A stretch of 63,967 bases of DNA, filler included, from Stramenopiles sp. TOSAG23-3 (taxonomy: Eukaryota): assembly GCA_900128585.1 (NCBI GenBank). It is 11 parts of 11 records of this genome, joined end to end, with 100 filler letters (N's around TTAATTAATTAA, not from the genome) between each part and the next. Parts side by side here need not be neighbours in the genome. Positions count along the whole stretch, not along the records: positions 29,196 to 34,926 come from LT643447.1; 10 more parts are not named here. One strand, 5' to 3'. How positions within the stretch are numbered: the first letter of the stretch is position 1; the number at the start of each line of letters is the position of its first letter. The position numbers and the translations under genes are program-made. Positions 5,745 through 58,268 of the stretch are shown in pieces. The notes under the pieces were generated by a model. It was not told where the DNA came from. It searched no databases and was given only the letters and a program-made list of their open reading frames with translations.

Positions 5745-5844
5745 NNNNNNNNNNNNNNNNNNNNNNNNNNNNNNNNNNNNNNNNNNNNTTAATTAATTAA
5801 NNNNNNNNNNNNNNNNNNNNNNNNNNNNNNNNNNNNNNNNNNNN
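5745..5844. other. Artificial contig spacer
   Basis: 44 N + TTAATTAATTAA (stops in all six frames) + 44 N. Confidence 0.99.
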
Positions 5845-9558: not shown

Positions 9559-11394
9559 ATGGGAAACAAAGCCGTGTTGTCAACCTCGCATGGAGGGTGC
9601 CTCACACCCGTAGAGCTCGAAACCTGTGGGGTAACAGAAAGCGGTGAGTTGACGCTCGAAGAAGCCGCGGCAAAATACAAGATGCCAGCGGCAGTATGGA
9701 CCCGTCCTGCAACTGCTCATGGGACGTTTCTGCGCATAATAACTGTCAACGATGTGTACAAGCTGGAAAATTACCCGAACGTAGCGACGGCAGTTTTTGC
9801 CGCGCGTGCGGCTTCGAAACTCTTGGACGGTGTGGTTATTTCAACCTTACCGGGTGACTTTTTGTCCCCTTGCACGTTGACATCTTTGGATGGTGGCCGG
9901 GCCATGATGAAAGCCTTAAATATTGCGCAGATTGACTTTGCGTGTTTGGGAAATCATGAATTTGATTTGGGGTTTGCGGGGCTGGAGTCGATCCTTCAAA
10001 CGTCGTCCACAACGAAGATTATAAACAGCAATGTAGACGATAAGGAACTGCAAGCGTTACCGAAATACGTAAAATTTCTCGTCGGAAAACGCTCTTGTGT
10101 CCTCGGAGGATTCTTGACCGACGACACCTCCATTTACCCGCCTTCGACGAAGCCAAGCGTGCGCCCCGTCATTGTGTCGTGCGCGGAGTGCTGGGAAGCT
10201 GCGAAGGTGTCGGAGCCGCACGCGGGCAAGACACCAGATCTTTTTGTTCCCATGACGCACCAATTGACAAAACTGGACCGTGAAACGGGGGTAGCCCTGG
10301 CAAAGCACGATGAGCTGAAATCACGCACTCCCGTTGTCCTGGCCGCTCACGACCACGAAGTGTTTATAGAGGAGGCGGGAAATTCTGTCGTCGTAAAAGT
10401 AGGAGCAGACGCGTCGAATATAGGAATTATTGACATATGGTGGAATCAAGAGGAGGAGTTGAAATCGTCAGTGACGATGCTGCCAGCCAGCGAGTTCCCG
10501 CAGAGTGCACCGGTCGCCAGCTTTGTGGAGGAGCAGCGCGTATTTTTGGAAAAAATGATGGACGTGCCGATTGCTTCCCTGCCTGCCGAGGGCTTGTTGT
10601 CTTCGAAAAAGGTCCGTTTCGAAGAGTCCGCAATAGCGACGTTTCTTCTCTCGTTCGTAAAGCGAGGGCTGGCCCAAAATCAGGTCGAAGTTGCCATGAT
10701 TCAAGGCGGCGCTGTGCGCGCTGGGAAAATTTACAACAATAGCGAAAAGTTCCTGATGGGGGATCTCTTCCAAGAATTTGCCTTCGATTGCCACCAGGCT
10801 ATCATAAAAGTTCCTGGGCACATTATCGCCGCATCGATTCAGTCGACAAGATCTGCCCCGAAACCTGCAGCAAACTTTCTGCATTTGGACGACGGATGCA
10901 AAGTCCAGTTCATCCCTGGCACAAACACCCACACGGTGACACACCTGGATGGAAAGCCGATCGACCCCAACAAATTGTACAGTGTCGCGATTTACCAATT
11001 TCTTTTGACCGGCTTGAACGTCATCGAGCCGCTCCTTTCCTATGTCAAAGCGAACGTTGAGATTCCCGACCAAGAGGCCTGCCGCCCCGTGAAAGACATC
11101 GTCATGGAGTGTTGCATGAAAGACGCATGGCGACAGGTCGTAGGACTAGAGAAATGGGACGGGCTGCACACCAATGCGCGCAAGAAAGAAGAGTTTCAGC
11201 AGGCAATTCGCCTTGTCTTTGACGAGATCGATACAAGCAACGATGGATTTATCCACCCGGATGAATTGGAAAAGTACGTCGAGGAAAAACAGAATATTCA
11301 CAACCATGGTTTAATTGTCCAAATGATGAAAACTTTGGATGAAAATGGGGATGGAAAAATTAGTTTAGATGAACTTTCCCATATTGCCATATGA
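9559..11394 (+). CDS. 5'-nucleotidase-family metallophosphoesterase with C-terminal EF-hand pair
   Basis: NDVY, PGDFLSP, LGNHEFD, MTHQ, AHDH, QGGAVR; EF loops DTSNDGFIHPDE and DENGDGKISLDE. Confidence 0.88.
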   Translation: MGNKAVLSTSHGGCLTPVELETCGVTESGELTLEEAAAKYKMPAAVWTRPATAHGTFLRIITVNDVYKLENYPNVATAVFAARAASKLLDGVVISTLPGDFLSPCTLTSLDGGRAMMKALNIAQIDFACLGNHEFDLGFAGLESILQTSSTTKIINSNVDDKELQALPKYVKFLVGKRSCVLGGFLTDDTSIYPPSTKPSVRPVIVSCAECWEAAKVSEPHAGKTPDLFVPMTHQLTKLDRETGVALAKHDELKSRTPVVLAAHDHEVFIEEAGNSVVVKVGADASNIGIIDIWWNQEEELKSSVTMLPASEFPQSAPVASFVEEQRVFLEKMMDVPIASLPAEGLLSSKKVRFEESAIATFLLSFVKRGLAQNQVEVAMIQGGAVRAGKIYNNSEKFLMGDLFQEFAFDCHQAIIKVPGHIIAASIQSTRSAPKPAANFLHLDDGCKVQFIPGTNTHTVTHLDGKPIDPNKLYSVAIYQFLLTGLNVIEPLLSYVKANVEIPDQEACRPVKDIVMECCMKDAWRQVVGLEKWDGLHTNARKKEEFQQAIRLVFDEIDTSNDGFIHPDELEKYVEEKQNIHNHGLIVQMMKTLDENGDGKISLDELSHIAI

Positions 11395-11584: not shown

Positions 11585-11684
11585 NNNNNNNNNNNNNNNN
11601 NNNNNNNNNNNNNNNNNNNNNNNNNNNNTTAATTAATTAANNNNNNNNNNNNNNNNNNNNNNNNNNNNNNNNNNNNNNNNNNNN
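11585..11684. other. Artificial contig spacer
   Basis: N44-TTAATTAATTAA-N44. Confidence 0.99.
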
Positions 11685-14051
11685 TTCTTCTTCTGCTGAA
11701 GCGCAAGTTAAAAATGATTTTAATAGAGAGCTAACAATACAACACAATGTACCTGCACCGTACAGCATGCGGTTGTGCGCGAACACCTTGCGAACTACAG
11801 GTATCACACCGTCAGTGAAATCGAATTTGTCGAGGCTTAACGGGGAATTGACGCGTTTCGGCGCACCCTTATGAACGTGCCCCATGGCACCAAACCAAGG
11901 CTTCTTTTCTACCTTCTTCTTCTTCCTTTTACCTTTTGTAGGAGTGCTGGAGTAGGAGTTTGGAACAGGACCATCGTACACAATGTGCGACATTGTAGTT
12001 GCACTTTTAACTCCATTTTCAGTTCGAAAATTGCGATGGCCATGCAAAGCGTCCACAAACTCAGAGTAGGATATCTTGTCGTCGTGGTTGCGGTCAAAGT
12101 GCATGTGTTCAATCATTTTCAGGATTTCATCATTCGCCAGCCCTAGACCGAGTCGACTTAGGCCTTCTTGGATTTCGTCCTCCGTCAAATACCCATGACC
12201 AGATCGATCAAGGCTCTCAAACAGTGTACGAGTGTTTTCTATTGTGTGCCCATAAAGCTGTCGCTTGTGCTCAATTGCCATACGCACTACGTGAAAAACA
12301 TTGTGCTCCCAGTCTTCCACAGTCCTGGATGGCAGCGTGGGAGATGAACTTCTGGGGGACAAACTGTTTCGTCGCAGTGAACTGGGGGAACGAGAACGGG
12401 GGACTATGTGGGACGGAATGGCCGTGCTCTTCGCCACCTTAATGACCGGGTTTCGTGCACCGACATGAATTGCTGCTGACAACTCTTCCGGTTGTATCAT
12501 CCCATCACCGTTATCATCGATTTCTTCGATCAAAACCGCTATCTGCTTGTCACTTAAATTCAGCCCAATTTTCTTCATCCCCCTTTTTAAATCCAGTGCT
12601 GACAAATAACCCTTCCTTTGACGGTCCATTTGTTCAAACAATTTCATCGTGTGGTCTTCAGATTCACCGTACAAAAGGCGATTGTGGGCAAAAACTTTCC
12701 TGACTACCGGAATTATCCCATTAGAAAAATCCAGGGCCTCCATCGACAGCGGGGTGTTAACGTGCCTCTCTGACTTTATGGCCTTTGGTTTTGCACCGCT
12801 TGGTGTCCACGCCTTTTTGGGGGCTTTATCGTCATACCGGAGGGCGCCCCCGCGCTTCTTCGTAGACTTCGGTCTGCCGTTGGACAAGGTCTGGTTCAAA
12901 ATGCTCGAGCGCGGGGATGGGACACGAACTGACGGATGATTTTGTTGGTCTCGTTGCTCAAAACTTTCAAAGTGCAAATCGTGCAGCTGCACGTCCAGCA
13001 ATCGCACGCACGCACAGCGGATTCCGAGAGCAGGGCAGTAGGACTTTAGTATGTTTCTAGTTCTCTGGACACTATCCTCGTTTGCAGGGACTGTGATCAA
13101 CAAGTACGACTTGCAGTTTCCAGCCACCAGAGGAGCCACAAGTTTATTTAACAGGGTTTCTCTCGAGGATGTCAATACACCACTCCCACGGGTGGCATCA
13201 TGGACCGAACTCTTCTTGTGGCTGCAGAGCTCGTGAACAAGACGCTTCATGGACAGCGATTGCTTCGAGACTGTGCGGTAGGCATGATCCGACTTCTTGA
13301 AAGCAACGGGGCTGTCTCCAATACAGTCCACGATATGCAGCGTACTGGCGCGCATGTCCAGGCTGTTGTGAAGGACGATCCTGATAAACCCGTGCGCACG
13401 GTTTGGAAGTGTCGATGGTTCCGTGTCGTTCTCGGAATGCCAGTTGACGCTCCTTTTCCGCGATTCACGCAAAACGTCTATTGCAACCTTTAAATCAGGG
13501 GTATGGATGGTTGAAAAGTCAAATTGGGAATGGTTTTTGGACGATATTGGGGGCTTATTATCTGACGACAACAAATCGATGAGTTGGTTTCCTCTTATTT
13601 CCCAGGCAGACAGGGCTATCGATATCGCCGTTGGATCTTCATACGTTTGCCGTCGGTGAAAAAGGGACGCGAGAATCATTCCAGAGAGTCCGCAATTGTT
13701 TCCTACCAATGTGAAACTTTTACCAGAACCACTCTCCCCATTCGCTATGACCGATGCATTAAACCCATCCCACACCCACTCAACACAAGGTGCTCCAATG
13801 GAGTCAAACACGTCGTCTTCGGTTGCCCTTTCGTCCAGCGCTACGGACGTCTCGAACAGGGAGTCTGTTGCTTCGTCTTGCACGACAACCAATTTCTTAT
13901 TTCGAATGTGCACCGATTTATTGCCGTCCTTTGCGGTGTTCGGAGCGACTCGCACGACGACATCAATTTCTCCAACCCGTGCATCGCCTCCACCAAGTCG
14001 CTCAAGCTCCTCGGTCAACAGCACCAGGTCGTCCGGCACCGCTGCATACAT
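11685..14051 (-). CDS. Divergent kinesin motor-like domain plus repeated EF-hand modules, 3'-truncated
   Basis: VVVRVAP, DGFNASVIANGESGSGKSFTL (P-loop), LSAWEIRGNQLIDLL, LVAPLVAGNCKS; EF-hands such as DDNGDGMIQPEE and DRNHDDKISYSE. Confidence 0.8.
11694..11763 (-). repeat. 70-bp perfect inverted copy of 16108-16177
   Basis: Reverse complement is GTACGGTGCAGGTACATTG...TTGCGCTTCAGCA, identical to 16108-16177. Confidence 0.95.
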
Positions 14052-29195: not shown

Positions 29196-30098
29196 TTCAT
29201 TGTCTCGCAGATCTAACTTCGTCAACCTAGTGCAATTTTCAATGTAAGGCGACAACGCCTTTATTTTGAGACCAGGGGCGATTATTTCTTTAATGGTTTC
29301 GTAGGAACATTCTGGAACCCCAAAAATTCCATTTTTGAAGACCAGTTTAGGCTCGGCATTTTCCCATAAAACGCTGCCAAGCTCCGCAGAACACTTTGAA
29401 TTTATATGAACGGATGATCCGACGACATAAAACAACTGCACAGTTGCAAAGACTACTCCGCAGAGCATTATTATGAAAAGGCCTTTCAATCCCTGCGCGC
29501 GCGTTTTCGTTCTCGGCTTCGTTAGCCCCTCTTCTGGTTTACTCTTTTCGACTAATTTAACTCCTATTGCCTCCCCCATTTCTTGTAAACGAAGCAAAAA
29601 TAAAATAGAAGGCTGAGCAAGACTCATGCTTCCAACAAACGGATCTCCATACAAATCCGTAGATTTCAAGAATGACATGTTTAAGCAGAAACACATGAAA
29701 TCAATGATGGTATCTGTGGCCAGAAACATTCCGTTTCGAAGCCCTGATTCAGAGGCATCCGGAGGTACTTTGATTTGTAAAAACACAAACAGTGTATTCA
29801 CTAGCAAGTTCAAAAAGAAAAAAACAGAAGCCATCTGCACGTACAACTGCGGCTTCTGTCCGTAGAAAGTTTGCAAACTAATAATCAGCATTGCAATTTC
29901 AAAGATCTCCCAAACCATCATTTCAGCGAAGAAGAATTCCCCGTTTCGTAGACTAGTGCTTTGCTTGTACTGATCCAGAATGCGTTGAAAACAATTCTTT
30001 TTTCCCTCTTCCGAGATGTTGTCGTAAACAATTGCGCCGTGTCCTGAAATTGCAACCGTAGCAAGCTGCAACGTGAAACAAGTGAGAATACGAAGCAA
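29196..30098 (-). CDS. Fragment of a multi-pass membrane protein followed by leucine-rich repeats
   Basis: Several hydrophobic helices, then LKIKALSPYIENCTRLTKLDLRDN (LRR). No ATG at the 5' end; 3'-truncated. Confidence 0.6.
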
Positions 30099-30888
30099 TG
30101 GGGTGTTTTAGATGCTGCAAAAGCCTGTGCATTTGTCTTTCTCGAGCTTGATGCTGTCGTAACATGGAAACGAAACCACGCCAACGCTGCCAACCCATGA
30201 CCAGCGACCGCATTGCAATGTATCTAAATTCCCTAGAAACGATCCGGCGCAGTAAAGCCCTGCGCGAATGCTGAGATGACATTTTTCGATCTATATGCAC
30301 CAATTGGTTCTGCCAATGCACAAACGCGTCGTGTAAAATGTAGCCCGTATTCTTTATTATGAGCAGTAGGACGGCTCTTCGTTTGGTTTTTAGTAATTTT
30401 GACACCCTAACCCAGCCTTTAAAATGTATTCGCAATGATCCCATGCGCCACTTTTTGTCCGCTCGACGGGTATTTGCTCGGTAGTGCCGTACTTTTCTGC
30501 TGTACTGACGCCACACCCAAAATACTCTCCTAATTAAGCGATTTGAAGCACGGAACAATAAACTTTTCTGCAGTCGAAAGACATTCTGGGAAATATAATC
30601 CAGCTTCGATTGCATGACGGTTGACTGCATGGCGGCAGCATTGTCACTGTTGCCTCTATGCATTGCAAATTGTGTTATCCTAGCGATTTTTTGTCTTCTG
30701 CGAATTTCTCGATACTTTTGAATTTTCTTTAAACTGTCTTCTTTGGCCTTCGCTGCCTTGGCAACATGTTTCCAGGACAAGAAACGTTTTCTGGTGGAAA
30801 GATGCTTTCGTAGTCGGTGTATGTTTTCTTCAGAACTTGAAGGCGTTTTCAACGGTGCCAATGCTTTCCATATCTCCCATGCATGCAT
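29953..30888 (-). pseudogene. Fragment with Sfi1-like Trp repeats, fused out of frame to the TM-LRR fragment
   Basis: Periodic RVFWVWR, IHFKGWV, DAFVHWQ and MGWQRWR motifs; protein-like character is lost after about 30100. Confidence 0.5.
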
Positions 30889-31456
30889 TAATTCTCTATG
30901 TTGGAGTTATCAAAAATAATAATAATAAAATATAAACCCACCGCCGCCGTCGCCGCCGCCGCCGCCCGCACGTGATTACTTTACGAGTAGTAGTTGTTAC
31001 CATGAATGCAAAGTTAAGAAATCATGTTGATATTGGTATTGATTTCTAGGAGATTTAATTCAACACACATTCAAGGGTTTATTTGCCAACGCATGATTTT
31101 TTGGGGTTCGAGTTGAAACATTACTTGTTTCAGAAGTACATCATAAACGCATTTAAACGAAGAGTATGTCGCACGATAAAAGTGGTCATCGTGGTGAGGA
31201 TGGCCCCTGCTCCCCCGTCGTCGCCAAATGGAGATCACACCGTGACCGGATGAGAAGCCGCTTGTCAGCAACGAAGTCGCGCCCAGAGGAATTGGAGTTA
31301 AGGGACAGCGGTCGTTTGGGGAATGCATACCATGGAATTGAAAATGCGTTGGAGGTGATCCACGCTTCTGTCGCACAGGGAGGTACGAAATGTCTGGGTG
31401 CAACTGTTGTTACTACCCCATTGAGATGTTTACTAATTTAACACACACGTTTTCTG

Positions 31457-34400
31457 TCAAACGACAACAGTAGGCGCGAGCGACAAGGGTCTATACTTCA
31501 TTCCATTTATATCCAAGTTGATACGAAGTTTCTGATCCCTGGCTGAGACAGCTATGCGCATGGTACCACCCGATATTCCAATATCACTAAACGCTTCTCC
31601 CATGCTCTTACCGTTCAGAAAAAATTCTATACTTTTTTTTCCTAAATTTGCAAGACACCCAATTACGTCCCCATGTTTCCATTTGTTGCCATAATCTTCG
31701 TTGCGTTTATTCGACCCTTTTTGTCGGCCCCATTTTTTCCCTTTGTTTTCGCCCCCTCTGTTTCCGTCAAAGCCCCAGCTATGGCAATCATCTCCTACGC
31801 CATCAGATGACTGTAGGTTCTTTGCCTCGAATTTATCATCCACAAAACCGCATTGCGAAAATCCTTTTCCGCTAATGTATTCGATTTCGTAGTAAATATT
31901 AACAGTGTCATAACCCTTTTCAGTGGCAAAGGTACTAAACTCTTTGAAGTCCACGACATACACATTAGGCAGTAATTTTTCGATTAGGCAGTTTCCCGGC
32001 AATCCAACAATACGATGAAAGACTATTTCACCAGCAGCTTGAATTCTCTTCGCCTCCCTTTTTTCTTCCTCCAATCTTTCTGAAAGATCTGATGGCATCA
32101 ATTTCAGGAACTCGTCTTTTTGTCCTAGTTTATGGTACATCTCTGCAAGCCGTTTCTCGGTTTCTGAAATTTCTTCATCGCCTTCTGGCAAAATACGTTT
32201 GTAAAGCGCCAACGTTTCCTCAAATAAGGAACGTGCTTGTTCATAGTGCTCCTCAAAATCGCTGTATATTGATGCAAGATTGTACATGCTCACTGCAACG
32301 TCCCGATGTTCTTCGCCATAGATCTTTTTACGGAAATCCAACGCTTTTTCCAACAACTCTAACGCATCTTTTATATTTTGGTCCTTTCCTATTTTAATGT
32401 GAGTAATAGCAAGATTGTTCATGCTGTCGGCTATGTATGGATGATCCTCGGGCCCTTCCTGTTGACGATCCGCCAATGTTTTCTTATGCAACTCAAGGGC
32501 ATCATTATACCGTTCTAATTCGTTGTACGTAAGTGCAAGGTTATTCTGAGCCTTAGTAATATCTAAAAAGCTGGCTTCTTTCTTTCGAAAACATTGCAGT
32601 GCTTCGTCTTCCAATTTACGCGCTTCCTCACAATTCTGTGCGCCTCCTTTATTTCTGTACGCATTTGCAAGATCCCCCTTGCCCCTTGCAATTTTTAGTT
32701 CATCACCTTGCAGTTTAGTGAGTTCCAGCGATTCTTTATACAATTCAAGGGCCTTATCAGTGTATTTCAAACGTAAGTAGGTATCTGCGAGCTTGTTCTG
32801 AGCTGTTGCAATGTCTAGATTATTACTTCTAAGGAAATCTAACCATTTCATTTTCATTTGACGGGCGTCTTCATGGTGCCCTAAACGACTGTGCGTATCT
32901 CCAATATGCCCCATTAAAGTTCCCACTTCCCCGTCCGTTTCATTCTGCAGCCGAGGAACTGAATTTAGAAGAAATTTCCCATGGCTAACCCAGCGTTGCA
33001 AAAACTTCATCTTCTCCACCCATTTCTCTTTGCTCTTGTTTGCACTAATGAAGCCTTGATTGAAGGCACGAACACAAACACGAGCCAATTTTATTTTCTC
33101 TTCGTCCGATATTTCATCAAACTGTACCTCTTGGACCAACCTATGAATCGAAAACGTGTTGTTGTTGTTATCCCACTCTACGAGCGAATTACTTGATAGC
33201 TCACTCAGCAATTTCCTTGCATCTCCTGTTTCAAAAGGAGTATTGTCTGTGGAATCAGGAATTTTTGAAATAATGTCTACAATCTCCACCGGTTTGTAGT
33301 CCGGTGCCATAAACGACGCAAGTCGAAACATATACTTTGCCTTACGAGGCAATTCCATTACATTCATGTGCCATGTCGTTTTGATCGTTTCCTTTTTTCT
33401 AGCTTCATCATCTTCATCATTGAAATCAAGCTTTTCTATCGCACTCATCATCTTACGTTCATCTACTTTGAACTTGAATTTCAAATCGCTTTCTTTCAGA
33501 AATTGCATATCTTTTAACCTATTGTATCCAAGACGTGTTAACTCTTTTTCATATTTGCCAAGATCATTGTCACATAACCATTTCCGAACTATCACTTTCT
33601 CCCGCAATTTTTTCTGTTCCGTTTCATCAAACATTTTTGTACGTTTCTTAACGTACAGCTGTTTGTACTCCTCCCATGTACAACCCCTTATCCGTACGAA
33701 AGAACCGGCCTGGACAAGTGCTAATGGAAGACCGTGCAGTCCATGTCGGCCAGCAAGCCACTTTAGCGCTTCCCCTTCTTGGTCGCCTTTATGTCCTGCA
33801 ACACGCAACAATAACCTCTGTGCTGAACATTGTTCAAGGGTTGATATAGGTAAAATATATTCTTTACCAAATCCAAGCTGTTCTAATTCAATAGAATTGT
33901 GCCTTGCTCGTGTTGTCAACAGAACATCCCCTCGCATTGCCTTGCATGGTAAAATGGTTCTAATGGTTCTACAGCAAAGCAACTCAAGGTTGTCCGCATT
34001 GTCGTAGATAATCAACCAATTTGAATGTTCTTGAAACCATTTTAAAACGCGCACAATGACTACTTTATATTTGGTTTTTTCCAAGCCTTTCATCCTGAGA
34101 TCAATATCGGCAATGTTCCAGAAACTCGCTTCAATTGACTTCTTAGTGCCTGCAGACACCCAGAATACGCCGCCTGGGTATGCTTTACGATTCTTACGCG
34201 CATACTGTTTTACAATTGCAGTCTTGCCAAGACCGCCAAGCCCTTGCAAAGCGACCATGTTTACGTTAGTAGGCCGCAAATGACGAACCAACTCTTGATA
34301 ATTTTGATTGTCAGTGAAAAATGGGTCTTCCGACTCGATTTCCCGTGGCCAAGCTTCCTGTTTATGAACCGCACGCATTTTTTCTATCTTGACTAACAAC

Positions 34401-34926
34401 TCCACAACCGTCGTGTGTCCATTTTCTTTTGCCAGATGCAAAGCCATGTACCAATATTTTTCTACCTTCTTGTCGATACAGCAGTTTTGGTGACCCATAA
34501 ATAACAACTTCACAACCTCCGCGTGTCCTTTTTCTGATGCCAGATGCAAAGCTGTGTACCCATATTCACGTTGCCTCTTGTCGTTTATCGTTAGATTTAC
34601 ACCACAATCTCTATTAAATGTTGTATATCCATCCAGTATAATTTTGACAACCTCCATGTATCCTTTTTCTGATGCCAGATGCAAGGCCGTCCGCCCACAC
34701 TTGTCCCGCATGTTGATATGACAGTTTTGGTGACCCAATAACAAGTTCACAACCTCCGCGCGTCCGTTTTTTGATGCCAGATGCAAAGCTGTGTACCCAT
34801 ATTCACACTTGTCCCGCATGTCATTTATCGTTAGATTTACACCACAATCTCTATTAAATGTTGTATATCCATGCAGTATAATTTTGACAACCTCCATGTA
34901 TCCTTTTTCTGATGCCAGATGCAAGG
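31457..34926 (-). CDS. NLR-like STAND protein: ankyrin repeats - NB-ARC (with inserted SAM) - TPRs - SPRY, 5'-truncated
   Basis: TALHLAS ankyrins; GLGGLGKT (Walker A), WLIIYDNAD (Walker B), VLLTTR, GLPLAL, FSIHRLVQ; TPRs such as HPYIADSMNNLA; SPRY YYEIE...GVGDDCHSWGFDG...GDVIGC...FFLNG. Confidence 0.9.
34441..34926 (-). repeat. High-identity coding tandem repeat (240-bp period) in the ankyrin array
   Basis: 34584-34686 and 34824-34926 are 103 bp with a single mismatch. Confidence 0.9.
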
Positions 34927-35026
34927 NNNNNNNNNNNNNNNNNNNNNNNNNNNNNNNNNNNNNNNNNNNNTTAATTAATTAANNNNNNNNNNNNNNNNNN
35001 NNNNNNNNNNNNNNNNNNNNNNNNNN
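34927..35026. other. Artificial contig spacer
   Basis: N44-TTAATTAATTAA-N44. Confidence 0.99.
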
Positions 35027-36722: not shown

Positions 36723-37260
36723 GGGTACTCAACGTGCCTGGCTGTTGAACGCGCGCCGCGTATTGCGAACCGTCTACCAAATAGAAACAATACAAGCTCT
36801 CTTAATAAAACGAAATACAAAATATTTAAACGATGCAAAATATTTTTTGAAGAAAAAAAATAGACGACATACAAAATATTGAAATAATATACTAATGAAG
36901 AAAAAAAATAGCTTCCTGCTTCCTCTTCTTCTCCTCCGTCTGTCGTCGTCATCTCTCCTCTGGCTTGCTTTTTTTGGCGGCTTTTTTTTTTCTTCTTCAT
37001 TCATTGGAATATTAAAAATTAAAAAAAAAATAATACGACGTCTCTATATTTAATACTACGCGATAAAGAAAAAATATTATAGTAAGTAGGAGGGGGCGGC
37101 TAATCCTCCTCCTCCTCCTCTAAAGGCTACTAACTTATTACCATGTTCAACCAAGTGACCAGTATAAACATTGAACAACGTTTTCATTTTCCCCACCCCC
37201 CGAAAAGACACACAAAAGGAACCTTCAAGCACTGCCGCTAGTCTTGGATTTGTAAAAAGG

Positions 37261-40200
37261 ATGGCTTCGTTTTTTGTAAAGGTCTTCGAAACGCTTTCTG
37301 CCCCGTCGCAGGAGGACGAGCAACTTCAAAAGCAACGGGTGTACTTACTGAAGGGCCTGAAACAAACGTCGAAACGTGTGCTCTCGAATTCATCGGTCGG
37401 GGAAAACGCTGGTCGAATAAGGTCAACGGACCCGTTTGCAGAGCAACTGTGCAATGATATTTTAGCGTGTCTTCGCCATGGCCTGAAGGGCCGTGGGAAA
37501 GATGGTTTCTGGGGGTTCATCAATGAGTGCTGCAAACGGGTGCTGTCTTCCAGTTCCCAAAATTCAAAGTTGGAACCATTTTTGGATAGCGTGCAGGCCG
37601 TTGGGATGCTCGACTTTGTAAAGACCCCAGAAGGGAAATCGAGAGCATGGGTAAGGCAGGCTTTGAACACCAAGGCAATGGCGGACGCGATCGAAGAAAT
37701 GATCCGGCACCAACCTACCCTGATACTAAGGTACGAGCCCTGGTCGCTCTTGAGGTGCAGTACTGGCAACCGAATACTAGTTTCTATAATAGCGCCTCTC
37801 GCAATATTTGATTTTTGTTTCGATGTTGACATCGCGCTTCTTGACCACCAAGACTTTCCAAGCCTCCCGGAAGAATTAATTATTGCGTCCATGGCTTCCG
37901 CGAAGCCTCCCGGGAGAGCGTCCCGTTCCACTTCGCAAGCGGAACAGGAGTTACAGAATAAACTTTGGGAAAGCAAGCGCGCTGGCGGAAGCCAAGTTCG
38001 AAGGAAGCGGAGTGCGTCCGACGGTGGCGGGGTGACCAATCTGGCGTCGTCTGCGTTTTCTTTCCTCTCTCGCGCTGCTCATACAATAACAAAAGACGCT
38101 TCGTCCGCACTGGACGTAATAATCGATGGGATGAGCAATACGAAACGACTTCGCCAAAAGTGTGGGTTCGAAATGAACCTGTCGTTACTCGTACGCTCGC
38201 AGCGTCACTGCCGCCACGCACTGCTGGAACCAAGGCTCGGGGTCCCGCGGATTGCCGAGCAGTGTTTCAACGCCCTGGAAAGTCAGCTGGATACGAAGGG
38301 CTTGTTCCAAGTTTCACCGCCCGAGGCGGAGGTGTTGGCGCTTAAAGAGGCGTACAGTACGGGAAGAAGTCTACCGGTCGGGCTGTTTTCGGCGCATGCG
38401 ATCGGTGGCCTTCTGATCGCCTTCTTGTCCAGCATCCCGCATTGTCTGGTCCCGCCGCTGCACCGACTGCCGCTGATCGTCTGCGCGACGGAGATCGAAG
38501 AAGTAGAAGCACGCGATCGAAACATAGGCTTTCGGCTGCAAGAGTTGCCTTGGGCGCACCGCCCGCTGTTTCGAAAATTGGTCGAATTTTTTCGCCGGGT
38601 AGTTTCCCCAGAGCACTCCGCCTTGAATGGGACGTCGCCGATGGGCGTTGCGGGCCTCCTGGCTCACATCATGTTCGACATTCACGGTGTCGAAACTATA
38701 GAAACGTTGGACGGCAGTTTGGAAACTACAGATGGGAAAACAGGGGGGCCCCGGACTGTGAAAAAGACGGTTCCAAAAATGTCATCGTCTGAAATTGAAA
38801 AGGCGATCCAAACGGCGCACATAATTCTCACGGGAAGGGATCAAGTCTTGGCGGGGATCAAAGAGAAAATGGCGCAGCACAAGCAGTCGCTAGATGGGAA
38901 AGTTCTGTACCTTCGACAAACGTACGAGGTCCAATTTAAACCATTCAATGCACAGAGCCCGTCCCACGTTAGCCTCTTACGGAAAATATGGGATTTACTG
39001 CTGCACAAAGTTGAAGGCCCAATGCCGAGCCCGTTGCCTCCCTTTTCCCTTCAATCAGGCATGTGGTCCAGGTTTGGGTTTCGTGGCAGCGATCCTACCA
39101 TCGATCTGCGCGGGGGCGGTATTTACGCGCTTCAACAACTCGTTTACCTGTACACCAACTACACAGAGAAAATACTGTTTCTCCTGCGTTGGCACGAGGA
39201 GGTCTCGAACAATAGAGCACTGCACGCGTACCCTATGGTGATAACGTTCGTTCGATGCGCGAGAATCGTGACCGAGGTGACAGGGCTACAGCCCAAGGCT
39301 ACGGGCGCGTCGGCGTCAGACACGTTCTCGCTGAACTCCCTATGCAACGGGCCGTGTTGGAGGCTGTTTGACCACGGTTCGTCGTCGATGGGGGAGCTTT
39401 GCGCGTTTGCATTCTTGCTTCACGACCGTCACTGGAGGAAGCAGGACGCGCATTTCGTGGACTACGACCGTCTTTTGGAGGAAACTAAGCATGAACTGAC
39501 AGGGTTGCTAACGCGCAGGCCCAGCGACACCAAGGGCCTTTGGAAGCTGTGGATCGACGACAACAGCAAAAAAGAGTTTGGAGGTGGTCCTCGCGGTGAA
39601 CTGATAGCGGAAACTGCAAATGCACCATCGATCGCGCCCGCGCCGGCGGTCCAACCGGCCCCTGAAGGCATTGCGCCGAGTAGAAAAGGGAGCAGAGAGT
39701 CGTTGCCGGATTCTCCCGTCAGAAAGCGGGTTCCCACAATGGAACAGGGCCCCGGGTCACCGCTCCTCAGTTCTTCCTTTATACTCCAACCGGACCACGT
39801 GTCCTTTTTAGTCGAAAATGCCCTTCCAATTACCTGCAAAGACTATTCGTGGGTCAGGGCGTTTAGCTTGGGGAGCGATGGCAAATCGTTCACTAATTTT
39901 CAACGGAAAATTAAGTCTCACATGGGGTCCATTCTTGTAATTAAAGATTCGACTGGACGAATTTTTGGCGGGTATGCGTCCGAACCATGGGGTCAAAACC
40001 AGGAGGGATACTATGGAACCGGGGAATGTTTTGTATTCTCGTTGGACCCATCGCGAAAAGCGTACAAATGGACGTCCAAGAATAACTTGTGCATGATGCT
40101 TAACGAGACAGCGATTGCGATGGGCGGGGGCGGGTCGTTCGCTTTTTATTTGGATAGAGATTTGTACCGTGGAAGTTCCGGGCCATGCGAAACATTTGGG

Positions 40201-40347
40201 TGCCCTAATTTAGCCGGGGGTGACGGCAAGTTCTTTTGCGTGGACCTTGAAGTTTGGTATTTCACCAGCGAAACGGTACGCACGTCGCCGTCTATGTCAG
40301 GGGGGGGATCGCCCAGCAGCATGAACCTGGGCTCGCTGGAAATTTAG
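37261..40347 (+). CDS. RUN - RhoGAP-like - ELMO/CED-12 - TLDc multidomain protein
   Basis: RUN: CLRHGLK...FWGFI...GKSRAWVRQALN. RhoGAP: VPRIAEQC...GLFQVS. ELMO: WSRFGFRGSDPTIDLRGGG. TLDc: IFGGYASEPW...YYGTGECFVF...GSSGPCETF...LEVW. Confidence 0.85.
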   Translation: MASFFVKVFETLSAPSQEDEQLQKQRVYLLKGLKQTSKRVLSNSSVGENAGRIRSTDPFAEQLCNDILACLRHGLKGRGKDGFWGFINECCKRVLSSSSQNSKLEPFLDSVQAVGMLDFVKTPEGKSRAWVRQALNTKAMADAIEEMIRHQPTLILRYEPWSLLRCSTGNRILVSIIAPLAIFDFCFDVDIALLDHQDFPSLPEELIIASMASAKPPGRASRSTSQAEQELQNKLWESKRAGGSQVRRKRSASDGGGVTNLASSAFSFLSRAAHTITKDASSALDVIIDGMSNTKRLRQKCGFEMNLSLLVRSQRHCRHALLEPRLGVPRIAEQCFNALESQLDTKGLFQVSPPEAEVLALKEAYSTGRSLPVGLFSAHAIGGLLIAFLSSIPHCLVPPLHRLPLIVCATEIEEVEARDRNIGFRLQELPWAHRPLFRKLVEFFRRVVSPEHSALNGTSPMGVAGLLAHIMFDIHGVETIETLDGSLETTDGKTGGPRTVKKTVPKMSSSEIEKAIQTAHIILTGRDQVLAGIKEKMAQHKQSLDGKVLYLRQTYEVQFKPFNAQSPSHVSLLRKIWDLLLHKVEGPMPSPLPPFSLQSGMWSRFGFRGSDPTIDLRGGGIYALQQLVYLYTNYTEKILFLLRWHEEVSNNRALHAYPMVITFVRCARIVTEVTGLQPKATGASASDTFSLNSLCNGPCWRLFDHGSSSMGELCAFAFLLHDRHWRKQDAHFVDYDRLLEETKHELTGLLTRRPSDTKGLWKLWIDDNSKKEFGGGPRGELIAETANAPSIAPAPAVQPAPEGIAPSRKGSRESLPDSPVRKRVPTMEQGPGSPLLSSSFILQPDHVSFLVENALPITCKDYSWVRAFSLGSDGKSFTNFQRKIKSHMGSILVIKDSTGRIFGGYASEPWGQNQEGYYGTGECFVFSLDPSRKAYKWTSKNNLCMMLNETAIAMGGGGSFAFYLDRDLYRGSSGPCETFGCPNLAGGDGKFFCVDLEVWYFTSETVRTSPSMSGGGSPSSMNLGSLEI

Positions 40348-52947: not shown

Positions 52948-55900
52948 ATGCCCATAAAAGAGTACAAGTATGGACGGGGAATTGGTAACGACCATGAAAC
53001 TACTAATTCTTCGTCCTCGCTTCGCTCGGCTTCTTCGTCTGCCTCTACCCGCTATGGCTCTCGGCCAAGTGCACCGAGAGGGATAGCAATGTTAGAAAAG
53101 AAAATGGCCATACAAGAAGAATACCAATCCATTGGCCACCGAGTAAAAACAACCCTCGATGATTTTGAGGAATACGACAGTCGGGACATTTTCCACGCAA
53201 TGGAAGAGCAGATGTACCAGGAGGAAAAGAAGAGAAAGTCTAGGATTTATCTTCAGGCTGGAGAAGAAAAGGAAATTGTATACAAACGCATCCCAATAGA
53301 GAAGCGTGAAAAGGCCTTCAAAGCGGCCGTAAAACGCAGCAGGGACAGGCTGAAAAATTTGGAGACCAACCTCTTGGCCGTATGCGCTGGACGGCTTGGT
53401 TTACTAAGTGAAGTCGATGTTTGGTTCGAGGAGAAGGGGGACACCATGGACAAAGATGAGCATGAGTGGAACAAATGGGAAGTAGAAGCTGCAATGGAAA
53501 AGGCGGGGGTCATCAGCGAAGAGACGATGATGCAGCAGTTGGAGGAGATTAAGAACATGGTTAGCCATAAGCAATCGAATGCAGCGCGAAAAATTTTGAA
53601 CCTCCATACGAGCATGATACAAGATATGAAATTCACGGTTTCACGGATAATTCAGCACGCAAAAGATGATCTGCAAGCTGTGGAAGAAGAAAACGAAAAA
53701 TACCAATCCACAGTAGACGACCTGATTCTAGAGTCGAGGGAGTACCAAGAAGAGGTTAAAGATTTGAAAAGCAAATCTGCAGAACTTGCTAAAAATTTGA
53801 TGAAAGTGCAAAAGTCAAACGTTCAAAATAAATCGGACAGGAGCAAGGCCATTGCGGCAAAGAACGTCGCCATCGATGAAGCGCGCCACTTGGAGAAGCA
53901 AAATAAGGCTTTCCGGGATGAGCAAGGAGAGATGATGCAAAAAATCGTGGCGATGGAAGGCAATATAAAGCGTGCCGTGGCTCGCGCTGAAATTGCAGAA
54001 GAAGGCCTCAGCAGTGCAGACTCGATGTTGTCAAACGAACGGAACAAGCTCCAGGCGCTCTCCGCTGCAAGCAACGAGGAAAAGCGCATCAATGATATTC
54101 TTAGAGAAAAATTACGAACGAAGGAGACCGAGCTAATAGACGGGAAGAAACGGTATAGCGACTTGATGAATGCGCTTGACATGCAAAATAGGGCACATGA
54201 GAAGATTGTAGAGGATATTACCATGCAACAGGAGTTCGAAACCAAAGAAAAAACCAACCAAATATTTGAACTGTTTCGGTACAACCAGGCAATATGGCAC
54301 GGCTCCCTCCTTGGACAGTTTCTGTCTTTCGCTGCCATCAGCACACCTACTATGGGGGCAGTCGCTGCAGGCGAAGTCAATTTCGAAAAGTTAGATACGT
54401 TGACACGGGAACAAACTGCAGACATCGTCCATCAAGTTGAGACGCAATTTAAAAACCTTAAGCAAACGCAACGAGATCTTTTCGATGGCACCCTGCCCAT
54501 TCCGGAAAAGGACAGGGTGGAGACTACGGGAATGAATGCAGAGGATCTGGAGTCGCTGAGCAAGTCCAAGCTGCGAGCCGCTCAACTTAAGCAACAAAAC
54601 GTCTCTTTCAAAATGCGACTGGCGGCCGAAAAGGAATTAAACGGAGAGCTACGAAAACGCGTGGGTGAAACTACTTCTGTACTAGAAAAGGAGAGACAGG
54701 AGTGGAGAAGCAACCGGCACGATTACGAGGGAAAATTATTCGCTGCAAATCATCTTGCAACCACCAATAAACAATTAATAGAGGAGCATGAGGGTACCCA
54801 AAAAAGACTGCAAGCTACTATCGATAAACTGACAGAAGCTCTTCAGCACGGGGGCGACGAAGAGTCGCAGTTGCGGTTGCTCCTGCAGCGTTTGAAAGAA
54901 CTAGAAGGTGCTCTGACACGCGCAAATTCTGACAGAGCGAAGCAGGAACAAGAGCTACTGCGCCAGCGGCAAGAGATGAACACCCTGAAGCGGTCTTTGG
55001 ACGAAGCATCTACTACAAAAGAAACAAGTTCAGCCCCGATGATGAAAATCACAAAGCTTTCAACGAGAAATAAGAAGGTTCAAAAGACGGACGATGAGCT
55101 GTTGCGTTTACGGGCAAGGGTAAGCATGTTGACAAATGAAATAGCACACTTGAAAGTAGAGTTGAATGCCCTGTACAAAGAGCATGATATTGAGCCCACG
55201 GTCCGCAGCCTGACGCCTCCAAGGATTCACACCCCTGAGGTAAAACTTGTGGAAGTCATTAAGGTCGTTGAAAAAATCAGAATAATTGATAAAACGGGAA
55301 AACATGACGCTGTCGAAAAAGAATTGCTCTCTCAGCAGACACAGACTGACACTCAAAGATCCGATCCAATCATAAAAGTGCGAGTTGAAAAGTCAAAACC
55401 GAATTATGTTCCAAGTTATCGTGAAATAAAGGTCGTTTCCCAGCCCCAAACCAAAGAGGCTGTATCAGTAGGGACACAGACGGACACAGTCGTCGCACAC
55501 AGGCAAATGGAAGACTTAGAGCTCGTGCTAGTCCGCCGAAGCTCTCCCGACGTTGATGATAAACAGCCAAAATATGTTCAAGAACCGTTTGCGCTCAGGG
55601 TGCCAATTCCTTCCGAGCGGGTCAAACAGAAAAAGGTCGTCCAGGTTCGTTCGCCGAGACGACAGCTATCAAACCAACAGAACGATGTTGTGGTGCACGA
55701 AAATATTAGCGCTCCTCAAGAGACGCCTGGTGTTTTCCCTAGCAAGCCCCCCCCCCCCCGAGGTTATGGTAATCCATTCAAACTCGCACCTAGAGAGTAG
55801 GGAAATCTTACGATTGAAGGAGCTGAACGCTATTTTAGAGCATATTCACAAGAAGCAAGAAGCGGAAGTTGAGCGCTTGAGGACGCAAGTTCAGCACCTT

Positions 55901-58168: not shown

Positions 58169-58268
58169 NNNNNNNNNNNNNNNNNNNNNNNNNNNNNNNN
58201 NNNNNNNNNNNNTTAATTAATTAANNNNNNNNNNNNNNNNNNNNNNNNNNNNNNNNNNNNNNNNNNNN
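58169..58268. other. Artificial contig spacer
   Basis: N44-TTAATTAATTAA-N44. Confidence 0.99.

What the first reader, a model, noticed from the sequence alone, without database searches (positions are those of the whole stretch)
31457..34926. Protist NLR-like receptor with a SAM domain inserted inside NB-ARC and a C-terminal SPRY
Seen: the order is ankyrins, NB-ARC up to GLPL, then VRKWLCDNDLGKYEKELTRLGYNRLKDMQFLKESDL...RKMMSAIEKL (SAM-like, about 33428-33595), then the winged-helix part (TTW...FSIHRLVQ), TPRs and SPRY. Known: NB-ARC-TPR proteins act as immune sensors in fungi and bacteria and are candidates in brown algae; extra domains normally sit at the termini. Inference: repeats on both sides of the ATPase plus an internal polymerising SAM suggest an undescribed receptor design in a unicellular flagellate.
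Basis: partly seen in the sequence, partly recalled or inferred. Interest (0 to 1): 0.7.

Follow-up and report, generated by a model that had tools for sequence, protein, structure and literature searches.

The report
NLR-like ATPase with SAM in hinge
A marine protist gene encodes an NLR-like switch protein with a real SAM interaction domain built into the hinge of its ATPase core, a rare layout shared by a few uncultured relatives, several of which carry a caspase-like protease.

Summary
ORF 31457-34924 (- strand, 1155 aa) is cut at its 5' end by a piece boundary. It reads Ank repeats, NB-ARC (NBD+HD1), a ~75-aa insert, a winged helix (DUF7779), TPR_10/12 repeats, then SPRY.

The insert is a genuine SAM domain:
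- Alone it just reaches Pfam's SAM_1 cut-off, 23.9 against 23 bits.
- A profile of it plus six homologous inserts hits only SAM domains in the PDB, best E 5.6e-8.
- AlphaFold models it as a helical bundle whose structural neighbours are all SAM domains.

It sits in the HD1-WHD linker. That linker is under 20 aa in 136 of 142 measured homologs.

It is not an assembly artefact. An independent seawater metagenome bridges both junctions, and an oligo-dT RNA library covers the 3' one.

It is not unique. Six metagenomic relatives have one or two SAMs at the same site, and four of them have an N-terminal caspase-like domain. They group with it on an NB-ARC tree. Five literature searches found no description.

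Polymerisation, an immune role and "flagellate" remain untested. Verdict: a new variant of the NB-ARC-TPR STAND/NLR-like kind, of moderate interest.

The parts
31457..34924 (-). 5'-truncated ORF of 1155 codons plus stop (31457-31459). It encodes Ank - NB-ARC - SAM - WHD - TPR - SPRY.
   Evidence: No start codon; the frame runs into the N spacer at 34927.
34355..34924 (-). Ankyrin repeats: at least 5 'LHLA' units, residues 1-~190. Two are a near-identical 240-nt duplication.
   Evidence: Ank 96.2 bits, Ank_2 92.6 bits; LHLA at 1, 47, 81, 126, 162; D2 repeat, 96%.
33599..34300 (-). NB-ARC nucleotide-binding domain plus helical domain 1 (residues 209-442). Motifs: P-loop GLGGLGKT at 34220-34243, Walker B LIIYDNAD at 33992-34015, LLTTRA at 33905-33922, GLPLAL at 33716-33733.
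   Evidence: NB-ARC 50.7 bits; motif coordinates; these columns are 90% or more conserved in 45 homologs; fold.
33389..33619 (-). Insert relative to homologs (residues 436-512). The SAM domain core is residues 445-499, window 33428-33592.
   Evidence: Junctions bridged by independent contigs.
33098..33361 (-). Winged-helix domain (DUF7779, residues 522-609). It starts at the conserved TTW (33365-33382) and holds the MHD-equivalent IHRLVQ (33131-33148).
   Evidence: 42.7 bits; T323, H400, R401, Q404 nearly invariant; helix-strand-strand-helix.
32180..32857 (-). TPR_10/TPR_12 (kinesin-light-chain-type) repeat array, residues ~690-915.
   Evidence: TPR_12 113.6 bits, TPR_10 94.7 bits; family profile against kinesin light chain TPRs.
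31514..31894 (-). C-terminal SPRY domain, residues 1011-1137.
   Evidence: 51.6 bits, cut-off 26.3; closest solved: RyR SPRY2 E 2.8e-8, RanBP9/10, DDX1.
34927..35026 (.). Artificial spacer (N44-TTAATTAATTAA-N44) between two unrelated pieces of the window. This is why the N-terminus is missing.

Best explanation
The gene encodes a eukaryotic (marine protist) STAND NTPase of the NB-ARC-TPR (Apaf-1/NLR-like) kind. All nucleotide-switch motifs are intact. A bona fide SAM domain has been integrated into the short linker between helical domain 1 and the winged-helix domain. That linker is the hinge about which NB-ARC proteins open when they swap ADP for ATP and oligomerise; the hinge role is established for Apaf-1 and plant NLRs and is recalled here, not tested.

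Shown here: the domain order, the SAM fold, the insertion site, its presence in independent samples, and its conservation at the same site in six distant relatives. Two of those have tandem SAMs. Four have an N-terminal caspase-like peptidase.

Inferred: the TPR array and C-terminal SPRY (and perhaps the Ank repeats) bind a ligand. This releases the closed ADP state and the NODs oligomerise. The hinge SAMs are thereby clustered on the outside of the oligomer and act as a homotypic interaction module. They could reinforce or extend the oligomer, or recruit SAM-bearing partners. This would be the induced-proximity logic of CARD, PYD or TIR, but delivered from inside the NOD. In the caspase-bearing relatives the output would be protease activation, a single-chain apoptosome. 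In this protein the N-terminal effector, if there is one, lies beyond the piece end.
For: Architecture and motifs.

NB-ARC fold:
- The AF2 model of residues 195-660 has pLDDT 86.7 and pTM 0.80.
- Foldseek gives 84 PDB matches at E<=0.001, led by NRC3, NRC1 and NRC2, Apaf-1 and CED-4.
- TM-scores are best against closed or resting forms: 0.51-0.56 for 8bv0, 3sfz, 1z6t and 8xuo.

SAM identity:
- Pfam SAM_1 scores 23.9 bits on the insert alone.
- The 7-insert profile gives 20 PDB rows at E<=0.01, and all 20 are SAM domains: Caskin-1 5.6e-8, SHIP2, ANKS1A/B, SAMSN1, liprin-beta, Eph receptors, SARM1.
- In model 1 the insert forms five short helices at block pLDDT 74-92.
- The insert-only model has core pLDDT 80-86.
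- All 34 Foldseek rows listed are SAM entries, at rmsd ~1 A over 51-56 columns.
- The top 32 VIA-align rows are all SAM entries, Z 9.2-6.6.

Site:
- Pfam NB-ARC ends at 442 (profile 236 of 248) and DUF7779 starts at 522 (profile 3 of 95).
- The spacer is under 20 aa in 136 of 142 homologs.

Not an artefact:
- Seawater metagenome X3 has identical 151-nt contigs at 33363-33513 and 33515-33665, covering both junctions.
- Oligo-dT RNA library X11 has an identical contig at 33354-33504.

Conservation:
- P0113, P0117, P0128, P0169, P0192 and P0222 carry SAM-like inserts at the same place.
- On a tree built without the insert columns, all seven insert-bearers fall in one 9-row group with SH-aLRT 83.
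- An AU test does not reject the seven as one clade, p 0.469.
- Caspase (Peptidase_C14) hits in four relatives score 21.4-37.1 bits against a cut-off of 21.4.
Against: - In the context of the whole protein the SAM_1 score (19.3) is below Pfam's cut-off. In the relatives the SAM hits are all sub-threshold, 13.9-16.1 bits, and P0222 and P0113 have none listed.
- The insert alone finds no solved SAM by plain phmmer.
- Foldseek E-values for the small model are weak, 0.16 or higher. VIA's own note says Z under 8 to 13 can be a common helical arrangement.
- The closest relative by identity, P0001 (45%), lacks the insert and is sister to the query on the tree at 95. So the SAM is dispensable in at least one lineage, or that gene model skipped it.
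- The 9-row group has only 83 SH-aLRT and also holds the insert-less P0123.
- Nothing here shows ATP binding, oligomerisation, SAM self-association, ligand binding or any immune role.
- The nearest solved NOD by sequence is the transcription regulator AfsR, 100.8 bits.
- The X11 reads come from an RNA library that may contain DNA.
Confidence: 0.6

Rival explanations
1. The hinge SAM is an intramolecular regulator, not an assembly module. It packs on the NBD/WHD and acts as a lock that stabilises the closed ADP state. Alternatively it is an integrated decoy that a pathogen effector or a SAM-bearing host protein must displace to let the hinge open.
For: The AF2 model of residues 195-660 is compact (pTM 0.80) and matches closed or resting NB-ARC structures best. 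The insert lies exactly at the pivot. From the abstract in the listing, a nematode SPRYSEC effector blocks NRC helper NLRs by preventing the intramolecular rearrangement needed for oligomerisation (10.1101/2024.06.16.598756). This shows that the rearrangement step is a known point of regulation.
Against: No coordinates or contact maps were available, so I could not see whether the SAM touches the NBD or WHD. Two relatives have tandem SAMs, which fits an interaction array better than a lock. AF2 tends to give closed states whatever the biology.
Confidence: 0.2
2. The protein is a non-immune signalling or scaffolding STAND. Examples would be a cytoskeletal or ciliary scaffold, or a transcription or stress regulator. 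Ank, SAM, TPR and SPRY would then simply be protein-interaction modules.
For: The closest solved NOD by sequence is AfsR, a Streptomyces regulator. Ank, SAM and NPHP3-type TPR domains co-occur in the ciliary inversin compartment proteins INVS, ANKS6 and NPHP3 (abstract of PMC7202064, listing). The SAM profile's best hits are scaffolds: Caskin, ANKS1A/B and liprin. No paralog expansion is visible in the other ten pieces of the window.
Against: TPR_NPHP3 scores 39.4 bits against a cut-off of 100, so this is not an NPHP3 ortholog. Four of the six insert-bearing relatives carry a caspase-like domain, which points to a cell-death output in the clade. Only 64 kb of the genome was visible, so the copy number is unknown.
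Confidence: 0.15
3. The insert is an artefact: an assembly chimera, or an unspliced in-frame intron that only looks SAM-like by chance.
For: The window is stitched from short pieces and appears to come from very small runs. The nearest relative P0001 lacks the segment. The whole-protein SAM_1 score is sub-threshold.
Against: - An independent seawater metagenome has identical contigs across both junctions, and an oligo-dT RNA library has one across the 3' junction.
- Six relatives have homologous inserts at the same site.
- Profile and fold searches return only SAM domains.
- No joints or skips were reported in this region (table 5).
Confidence: 0.03

Closest known systems
NB-ARC-TPR STAND proteins of bacteria, fungi, brown algae and some invertebrates. 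Examples are TIR-, XRE- or kinase-NB-ARC-TPR proteins, 'FxSxx-COOH system tetratricopeptide repeat protein', and AfsR.
   Same: The NOD has the same motifs (GxGGxGKT, DNAD, TTR, GLPLAL, TTW, HRLVQ), a DUF7779 winged helix and TPR_10/12 repeats. Identity is 25-33% over the NOD. AfsR is the best solved match by sequence.
   Different: In 136 of 142 measured homologs HD1 joins the WHD through a linker under 20 aa. Here a 75-aa SAM domain sits there. There are also Ank repeats upstream and a SPRY after the TPRs.
Metagenomic caspase-NB-ARC(SAM)-TPR proteins P0117, P0128, P0192 and P0222, plus P0113 and the GOS fragment P0169. These are unnamed and undescribed.
   Same: A SAM-like insert at the identical HD1-WHD site. 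They fall in the same group on the NOD tree. Where the C-terminus is present, it carries TPR_10/12.
   Different: They have an N-terminal Peptidase_C14 instead of Ank repeats, and no SPRY. Two have tandem SAMs. NOD identity is only 25-33%. They have a GC-rich composition. All are singletons from metagenome sources.
Apaf-1, CED-4 and plant NRC/ZAR1 NB-ARC modules
   Same: Same fold of NBD-HD1-WHD. Foldseek E 4e-10 to 1e-7; TM 0.51-0.56 to the closed forms.
   Different: Identity is 13-17%. None of these has a folded domain in the HD1-WHD linker (recalled from the structures, not tested here). Their sensors are WD40 or LRR, not TPR+SPRY.
SAMD9 / SAMD9L
   Same: [quoted passage not shown] The SAM is proposed to replace DEATH-fold adaptors (passages of PMC5445408).
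   Different: There the SAM is N-terminal, is limited to vertebrates, and sits outside the NTPase module. The NTPase is not an NB-ARC, and no sequence relationship was seen here.
SARM1 / TIR-1
   Same: SAM domains that oligomerise to switch on a cell-death effector. The SARM1 SAM is among the profile and fold hits: E 0.002 and Z 8.2.
   Different: There is no STAND ATPase. The SAMs themselves form the ring. That they form a ring is recalled; one search shows only that oligomerisation through the SAM domains enhances activity.
Teleost NLR-B30.2 (NLR-C) proteins
   Same: An NLR with a SPRY-type (B30.2) domain (PMC2268669 and PMC4852459; I saw only the search listing and the start of each abstract). 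That the B30.2 follows the repeat sensor at the C-terminus is recalled.
   Different: They have a NACHT, not an NB-ARC, and LRRs, not TPRs (PMC4852459 abstract). That they have a PRY-SPRY and no internal SAM is recalled.

Membership tests
STAND NTPase, NB-ARC (AP-ATPase) clade | Pfam NB-ARC above the gathering score | tested here: met
   50.7 bits against 23.5, residues 209-442.
STAND NTPase, NB-ARC (AP-ATPase) clade | Walker A, Walker B, sensor-1 Arg (TTR), GLPL, and the conserved His of the winged helix (MHD-equivalent) | tested here: met
   GLGGLGKT 228-235, LIIYDNAD 304-311, LLTTRA 335-340, GLPLAL 398-403, IHRLVQ 593-598. The same columns are 90% or more conserved in 45 homologs.
STAND NTPase, NB-ARC (AP-ATPase) clade | NBD-HD1-WHD three-domain fold | tested here: met
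   AF2 pLDDT 86.7. Foldseek top hits are NRC1/2/3, Apaf-1 and CED-4, E down to 4e-10.
STAND NTPase, NB-ARC (AP-ATPase) clade | Nucleotide-dependent oligomerisation | not testable with these tools
   Needs biochemistry.
NB-ARC-TPR subfamily | DUF7779-type winged helix followed by TPR_10/TPR_12 repeats | tested here: met
   DUF7779 42.7 bits against 27; TPR_12 113.6; TPR_10 94.7.
SAM domain (sterile alpha motif) | Pfam SAM_1 or SAM_2 at or above the gathering score | tested here: inconclusive
   19.3 bits, under 23, in the whole protein. 23.9 bits, at or above 23, for the insert alone. SAM_2 scores 14.3, under 20.5.
SAM domain (sterile alpha motif) | Profile-level sequence similarity to solved SAM domains | tested here: met
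   The 7-insert profile gives 20 of 20 PDB rows at E<=0.01 as SAM domains, best 5.6e-8.
SAM domain (sterile alpha motif) | Compact ~65-residue helical bundle superposable on SAM structures | tested here: met
   Insert model core pLDDT 80-86. 34 of 34 listed Foldseek rows are SAM, rmsd ~1 A. The VIA top 32 rows are all SAM, Z 9.2-6.6, for example SAMD5 with 61 of 64 residues at 2.1 A.
SAM domain (sterile alpha motif) | Homo- or hetero-typic SAM-SAM association | not testable with these tools
   Needs SEC-MALS, AUC or EM on the purified domain.
NLR-type innate immune receptor (functional class) | Tripartite layout: N-terminal effector, NOD, C-terminal repeat sensor | tested here: inconclusive
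   NOD and C-terminal repeats are present. The N-terminus is cut off by the piece end. Only Ank repeats are seen upstream.
NLR-type innate immune receptor (functional class) | Demonstrated role in pathogen sensing or cell death | not testable with these tools
   No experiment possible. The only expression hint is two identical contigs in an oligo-dT metatranscriptome.
Nephrocystin-3 (NPHP3) | TPR_NPHP3 above the gathering score | tested here: not met
   39.4 bits against 100.
SPRY domain | Pfam SPRY above the gathering score | tested here: met
   51.6 bits against 26.3, residues 1011-1137. RyR SPRY2, RanBP9/10 and DDX1 are the closest solved.

The most novel reading that the evidence does not exclude
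The hinge SAM is a built-in, conformation-gated polymerisation switch. Opening of the NB-ARC on ligand binding frees or aligns the SAMs. They then zip activated protomers into a collar or filament, as in tankyrase or SARM1. This defines a protist-specific class of NLR-like cell-death machines. Its caspase-fused members would be single-chain apoptosomes of marine plankton, plausibly acting in antiviral or anti-parasite suicide.
Probability: 0.15. Interest if true: 0.8.

Novelty: new variant of a known kind. Interest (0 to 1): 0.55.

Why it matters
In STAND/NLR proteins, accessory domains are almost always found at the termini. The HD1-WHD hinge is the moving part of the switch. A folded interaction domain conserved at that hinge across distant protist relatives suggests one of two things: a different way of coupling the nucleotide switch to higher-order assembly, or a new point of regulation. 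Some of those relatives are fused to a caspase-like protease.

The finding also adds a concrete, testable NLR-like family to marine protists, where cell-death and immune signalling are poorly known. Precomputed Pfam annotation does not flag the SAM in any of the relatives. That explains why the layout would have escaped domain-architecture surveys.

Tried and rejected
- Plain phmmer of the insert against PDB sequences gave only a chance hit, NDUB7 at E 0.77.
- A word-indexed search with the insert alone among 635-2022-aa proteins found 34 candidates, none at E<=10.
- A profile (A1) search among longer proteins returned 5 of the 6 relatives used to build the profile (P0169 was not returned), then caskin-1-type proteins at E 0.11-0.58. 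It found no new NB-ARC+SAM protein among 8000 scored candidates.
- Complex prediction with two copies of the SAM (residues 8-80 of P0112) gave 'no answer', score 0.00. The alignment was not used and the controls were not run. This is no evidence either way.
- No whole genome is held for the window, so I could not look for paralogs or the N-terminus beyond the window. tblastn of the protein against the other ten pieces found nothing at E<=1e-3.
- The N-terminus could not be extended. The source-like run's contigs break up in the ankyrin repeats: loose ends, a 130-nt skip and a 3-nt deletion variant.
- I looked at the DNA of the insert for signs of a cassette or exitron and saw nothing to build on.
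- The earlier-findings look-ups returned nothing for this genome or sequence. For the words 'NB-ARC SAM' they returned only radical-SAM operons of bacteria, which are unrelated.
- An alignment of 92 sequences failed internally. I repeated it with 45.
- Parts of the gene without cover in X3, X4 and X11 say nothing.
- Supplementary files of papers were not consulted.
Full report
**What the window is.** The 63,967-base window is not one contiguous locus. It holds 20 runs of 44 N, arranged as ten N44-TTAATTAATTAA-N44 spacers, so it is 11 pieces of about 5.7 kb. The finding lies in piece 29196-34926. No whole genome is held.

The other pieces carry typical eukaryotic multidomain genes:
- a kinesin with EF-hands;
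- a HECT ligase with fn3 and WW;
- a RUN-RhoGAP-ELMO-TLDc protein;
- a C2 protein.

Long uninterrupted ORFs are the rule.

**The ORF.** ORF 31457-34924 on the minus strand has 1155 codons and a stop, but no start. The reading frame runs straight into the spacer. The 'missing N-terminus' is therefore a piece-end effect.

The last 240 nt before the break duplicate two ankyrin units at 96% identity. In the small source-like run X1 the contigs fall apart exactly there. This probably explains the break.

**Domain order.** Pfam on the whole protein gives:

| Domain | Residues | Score (cut-off) |
|---|---|---|
| Ank repeats | 1-~190 | Ank 96.2 bits |
| NB-ARC | 209-442 | 50.7 bits (23.5) |
| SAM_1 | 445-499 | 19.3 bits (23) |
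| DUF7779, the winged helix of NB-ARC-TPR proteins | 522-609 | 42.7 bits |
| TPR_12 / TPR_10 | ~690-915 | 113.6 / 94.7 bits |
| SPRY | 1011-1137 | 51.6 bits |

The switch motifs are all present: GLGGLGKT, LIIYDNAD, LLTTRA, GLPLAL, TTW and IHRLVQ. They fall in columns that are at least 90% conserved in a 45-sequence alignment.

That is the Pfam SAM_1 envelope.

**Is there really an insert?** Two searches with residues 200-660 gave homologs:
- The word-indexed search found 111 proteins at E<=0.001 among 8000 scored candidates.
- The exhaustive phmmer search found 11,461 at E<=0.001, with the best 150 listed.

Most of the 150 listed rows match in two stretches that stop at about query position 235 and resume near 313. 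In other words, the alignment breaks at the insert.

I anchored the end of HD1 and the 'TTW' start of the winged helix in the 261 collected proteins. 142 had both anchors. The spacer lengths were:

| Spacer (aa) | Homologs |
|---|---|
| 0-9 | 126 |
| 10-19 | 10 |
| 20 | 1 |
| 70-150 | 4 |
| negative (mis-anchored) | 1 |

In the query the spacer is 74 aa. The closest relative, P0001 (an EukProt protein, 45% identity, FYVE-...-NB-ARC-DUF7779), has no insert.

**Is the insert a SAM domain?** There are four lines of evidence.
- *Pfam.* Scanned alone (P0112, residues 430-520), the insert scores 23.9 bits on SAM_1. This is just over the cut-off, E 5.4e-5, over profile positions 7-63 of 64.
- *Profile against PDB sequences.* I aligned the insert with the six homologous inserts (alignment A1) and searched the profile against PDB sequences. 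All 20 rows at E<=0.01 are SAM domains. They include Caskin-1 (5.6e-8), SHIP2, ANKS1A/B, Caskin-2, SAMSN1, liprin-beta, Eph receptors, SARM1, SAMD5 and ARAP3.
- *AlphaFold, in context.* In the model of residues 195-660 (45-row alignment, mean pLDDT 86.7, pTM 0.80) the insert forms five short helices, with block pLDDT 74-92.
- *AlphaFold, alone.* The insert modelled on its own (alignment A3) has mean pLDDT 71.5 and core blocks of 80-86. In Foldseek all 34 listed rows are SAM-domain entries, at rmsd about 1 A over 51-56 columns. The E-values are weak, 0.16 or higher, as expected for so small a domain. In VIA-align against 48,161 representative chains the top 32 rows are all SAM entries, Z 9.2 to 6.6. 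Examples are SAMD5 with 61 of 64 residues at 2.1 A, and tankyrase-1 SAM with 60 of 63 at 1.9 A.

Against this:
- A plain phmmer of the insert alone finds nothing in the PDB.
- The whole-protein Pfam score is sub-threshold.

Taken together, the fold assignment is secure.

Protein-interaction SAMs score above the RNA-binding Smaug and Vts1 SAMs, which reach Z 6.2 and 5.4.

**Where exactly is it?**
- The Pfam NB-ARC match ends at residue 442, profile position 236 of 248.
- DUF7779 begins at residue 522, profile position 3 of 95.
- In the model, the GLPL helix and the following 'W..Y' helix precede the insert, and the 'TTW' helix follows it.

From recall of the Apaf-1 structure (not tested here), this corresponds to the short HD1-WHD linker of Apaf-1, the pivot of the closed-to-open transition.

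The rest of the model is an ordinary NB-ARC:
- Foldseek gives 84 PDB matches at E<=0.001.
- They are led by tomato NRC3, NRC1 and NRC2, Apaf-1 and CED-4.
- The best TM-scores, 0.51-0.56, are to closed or resting forms.

**Is it an artefact?** No.
- Run X1, probably the source, has a 7101-nt contig identical over 31300-34492.
- Seawater metagenome X3 is independent. It has identical 151-nt contigs at 33363-33513 and 33515-33665, which bridge both junctions of the insert.
- The oligo-dT marine RNA library X11 has identical contigs at 33096-33246 and 33354-33504. The second crosses the SAM-to-WHD junction.
- No joint or skip was reported in this region.

The RNA library may contain DNA, so transcription is suggested but not shown.

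**Relatives with the same design.** Six of the 261 collected homologs carry an insert at the same site: P0113, P0117, P0128, P0169, P0192 and P0222.
- P0117 and P0128 have two SAM-like units in tandem.
- Their Pfam SAM hits are all sub-threshold, 13.9-16.1 bits, and P0222 and P0113 have none listed. The precomputed annotations show no SAM at all. This is presumably why the layout has gone unnoticed.
- P0117, P0128, P0192 and P0222 have an N-terminal Peptidase_C14 (caspase) domain, 21.4-37.1 bits against a cut-off of 21.4. P0192 and P0113 have TPR_10/12 arrays.
- All six are singletons, or a pair, from metagenome sources including GOS.

I then built a tree of 66 NOD sequences, with the insert columns removed.
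- Rows used: the query, P0001, the six insert-bearers, the first 38 of the other 144 rows that start by query position 40, and 20 rows picked for diversity.
- Rows left out: the remaining 106 and 90.
- Result: all seven insert-bearers fall into one 9-row group (SH-aLRT 83, not starred) together with P0001 and P0123, which lack the insert. Query plus P0001 has 95, and the caspase group has 97.
- AU test: it does not reject the seven as a single clade, p 0.469.

One ancient insertion with later loss is the simplest reading. A gene-model omission in P0001 is an alternative. The data cannot tell gain from loss.

A profile search for further members found none.

**Mechanism.**

Shown:
- an intact NB-ARC switch;
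- a SAM fold in its hinge;
- repeat and SPRY domains that could bind ligands;
- conservation of the hinge SAM across distant relatives.

Inferred from the known behaviour of Apaf-1, plant NLRs and bacterial Avs (recalled):
- Ligand binding to the C-terminal sensor releases the closed ADP state.
- The NODs then oligomerise.

My preferred reading (0.6 for the whole statement, much less for its last step) is that oligomerisation clusters the hinge SAMs. They would then strengthen or extend the assembly, or recruit SAM-bearing partners.

In the caspase-fused relatives this would amount to a single-chain apoptosome.

Rivals:
- a SAM lock or integrated decoy at the hinge (0.2);
- a non-immune scaffold or regulator (0.15), noting that AfsR is the best solved NOD by sequence;
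- an artefact (0.03).

**Comparison with known systems.**
- By membership, the protein is an NB-ARC-TPR STAND. It is not an NPHP3 ortholog: TPR_NPHP3 scores 39.4 bits against 100.
- SAMD9/9L also combine SAM, a STAND-like NTPase and TPRs, but with the SAM at the N-terminus (passages of PMC5445408).
- SARM1 uses SAM oligomerisation to drive a TIR effector (passage).
- Teleost NLR-B30.2 proteins carry a SPRY-type B30.2 domain; that it follows the repeat sensor is recalled (PMC2268669 and PMC4852459, listing and abstract starts only).
- The SPRY here is closest to RyR SPRY2, RanBP9/10 and DDX1.
- Five full-text searches found no paper describing a SAM inside an NB-ARC. Subscription journals and supplements were not searchable.

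**Verdict.**
- The SAM and its position are real.
- The design is rare and apparently undescribed.
- It belongs to a small clade rather than being unique.
- Its polymerising and immune roles are untested.

It is a new variant of a known kind.

Noticed in passing
window 5745-5844, 11585-11684... 58169-58268 (ten spacers): The window is a concatenation of 11 pieces of ~5.7 kb, joined by N44-TTAATTAATTAA-N44 spacers. Genes at piece ends are cut, and neighbouring pieces need not be neighbours in the genome.
   Followed up: yes
relatives P0117, P0128, P0192, P0222 (metagenome proteins): Caspase-like Peptidase_C14 fused N-terminally to NB-ARC with hinge SAM(s) and, in P0192, TPR_10/12 repeats. P0117, P0128 and P0222 show no TPRs. 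This is a one-chain caspase-plus-Apaf-like layout. P0117 and P0128 have two SAMs in tandem.
   Followed up: partly
relative P0113 (1357 aa): It has two NB-ARC/P-loop modules in tandem, one at residues ~1-450 and one from ~503. The second carries a longer SAM-like insert. It also has TPR_12 repeats and a weak, sub-threshold C-terminal SEC-C hit (19.5 bits against 20.4).
   Followed up: no
relative P0001 (EukProt, 817 aa): This is the closest relative (45% identity). It reads FYVE - long coiled region - NB-ARC - DUF7779, then ends in a hydrophobic tail instead of TPRs. It lacks the SAM insert. It may be an incomplete gene model.
   Followed up: partly
window 34574-34686 and 34814-34926: A 96% identical 113-nt direct repeat at 240-nt spacing (two-ankyrin unit). 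The source-like run shows a 130-nt skip and a 3-nt deletion variant here. This suggests repeat-number variation or collapse in the ankyrin array.
   Followed up: partly
window 37171-40347 (+): A 1058-aa ORF combining RUN, RhoGAP, ELMO/CED-12 and TLDc domains in one protein.
   Followed up: no
window 11637-14051 (-) and 9559-11394 (+): A kinesin motor fused to several EF-hands, and a 5'-nucleotidase C-terminal domain fused to EF-hands. Calcium-binding modules are attached to unrelated enzymes in adjacent pieces.
   Followed up: no
window 1823-5737 (-) and 52948-55800 (+): Two long ORFs (1304 and 950 aa) with no Pfam family at E<=1e-5.
   Followed up: no
window 29953-30888 (-) and 29196-30098 (-): Two overlapping ORFs downstream of the NLR-like gene in the same piece, with no Pfam match at E<=0.01. 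It was not resolved which one is the real gene.
   Followed up: no
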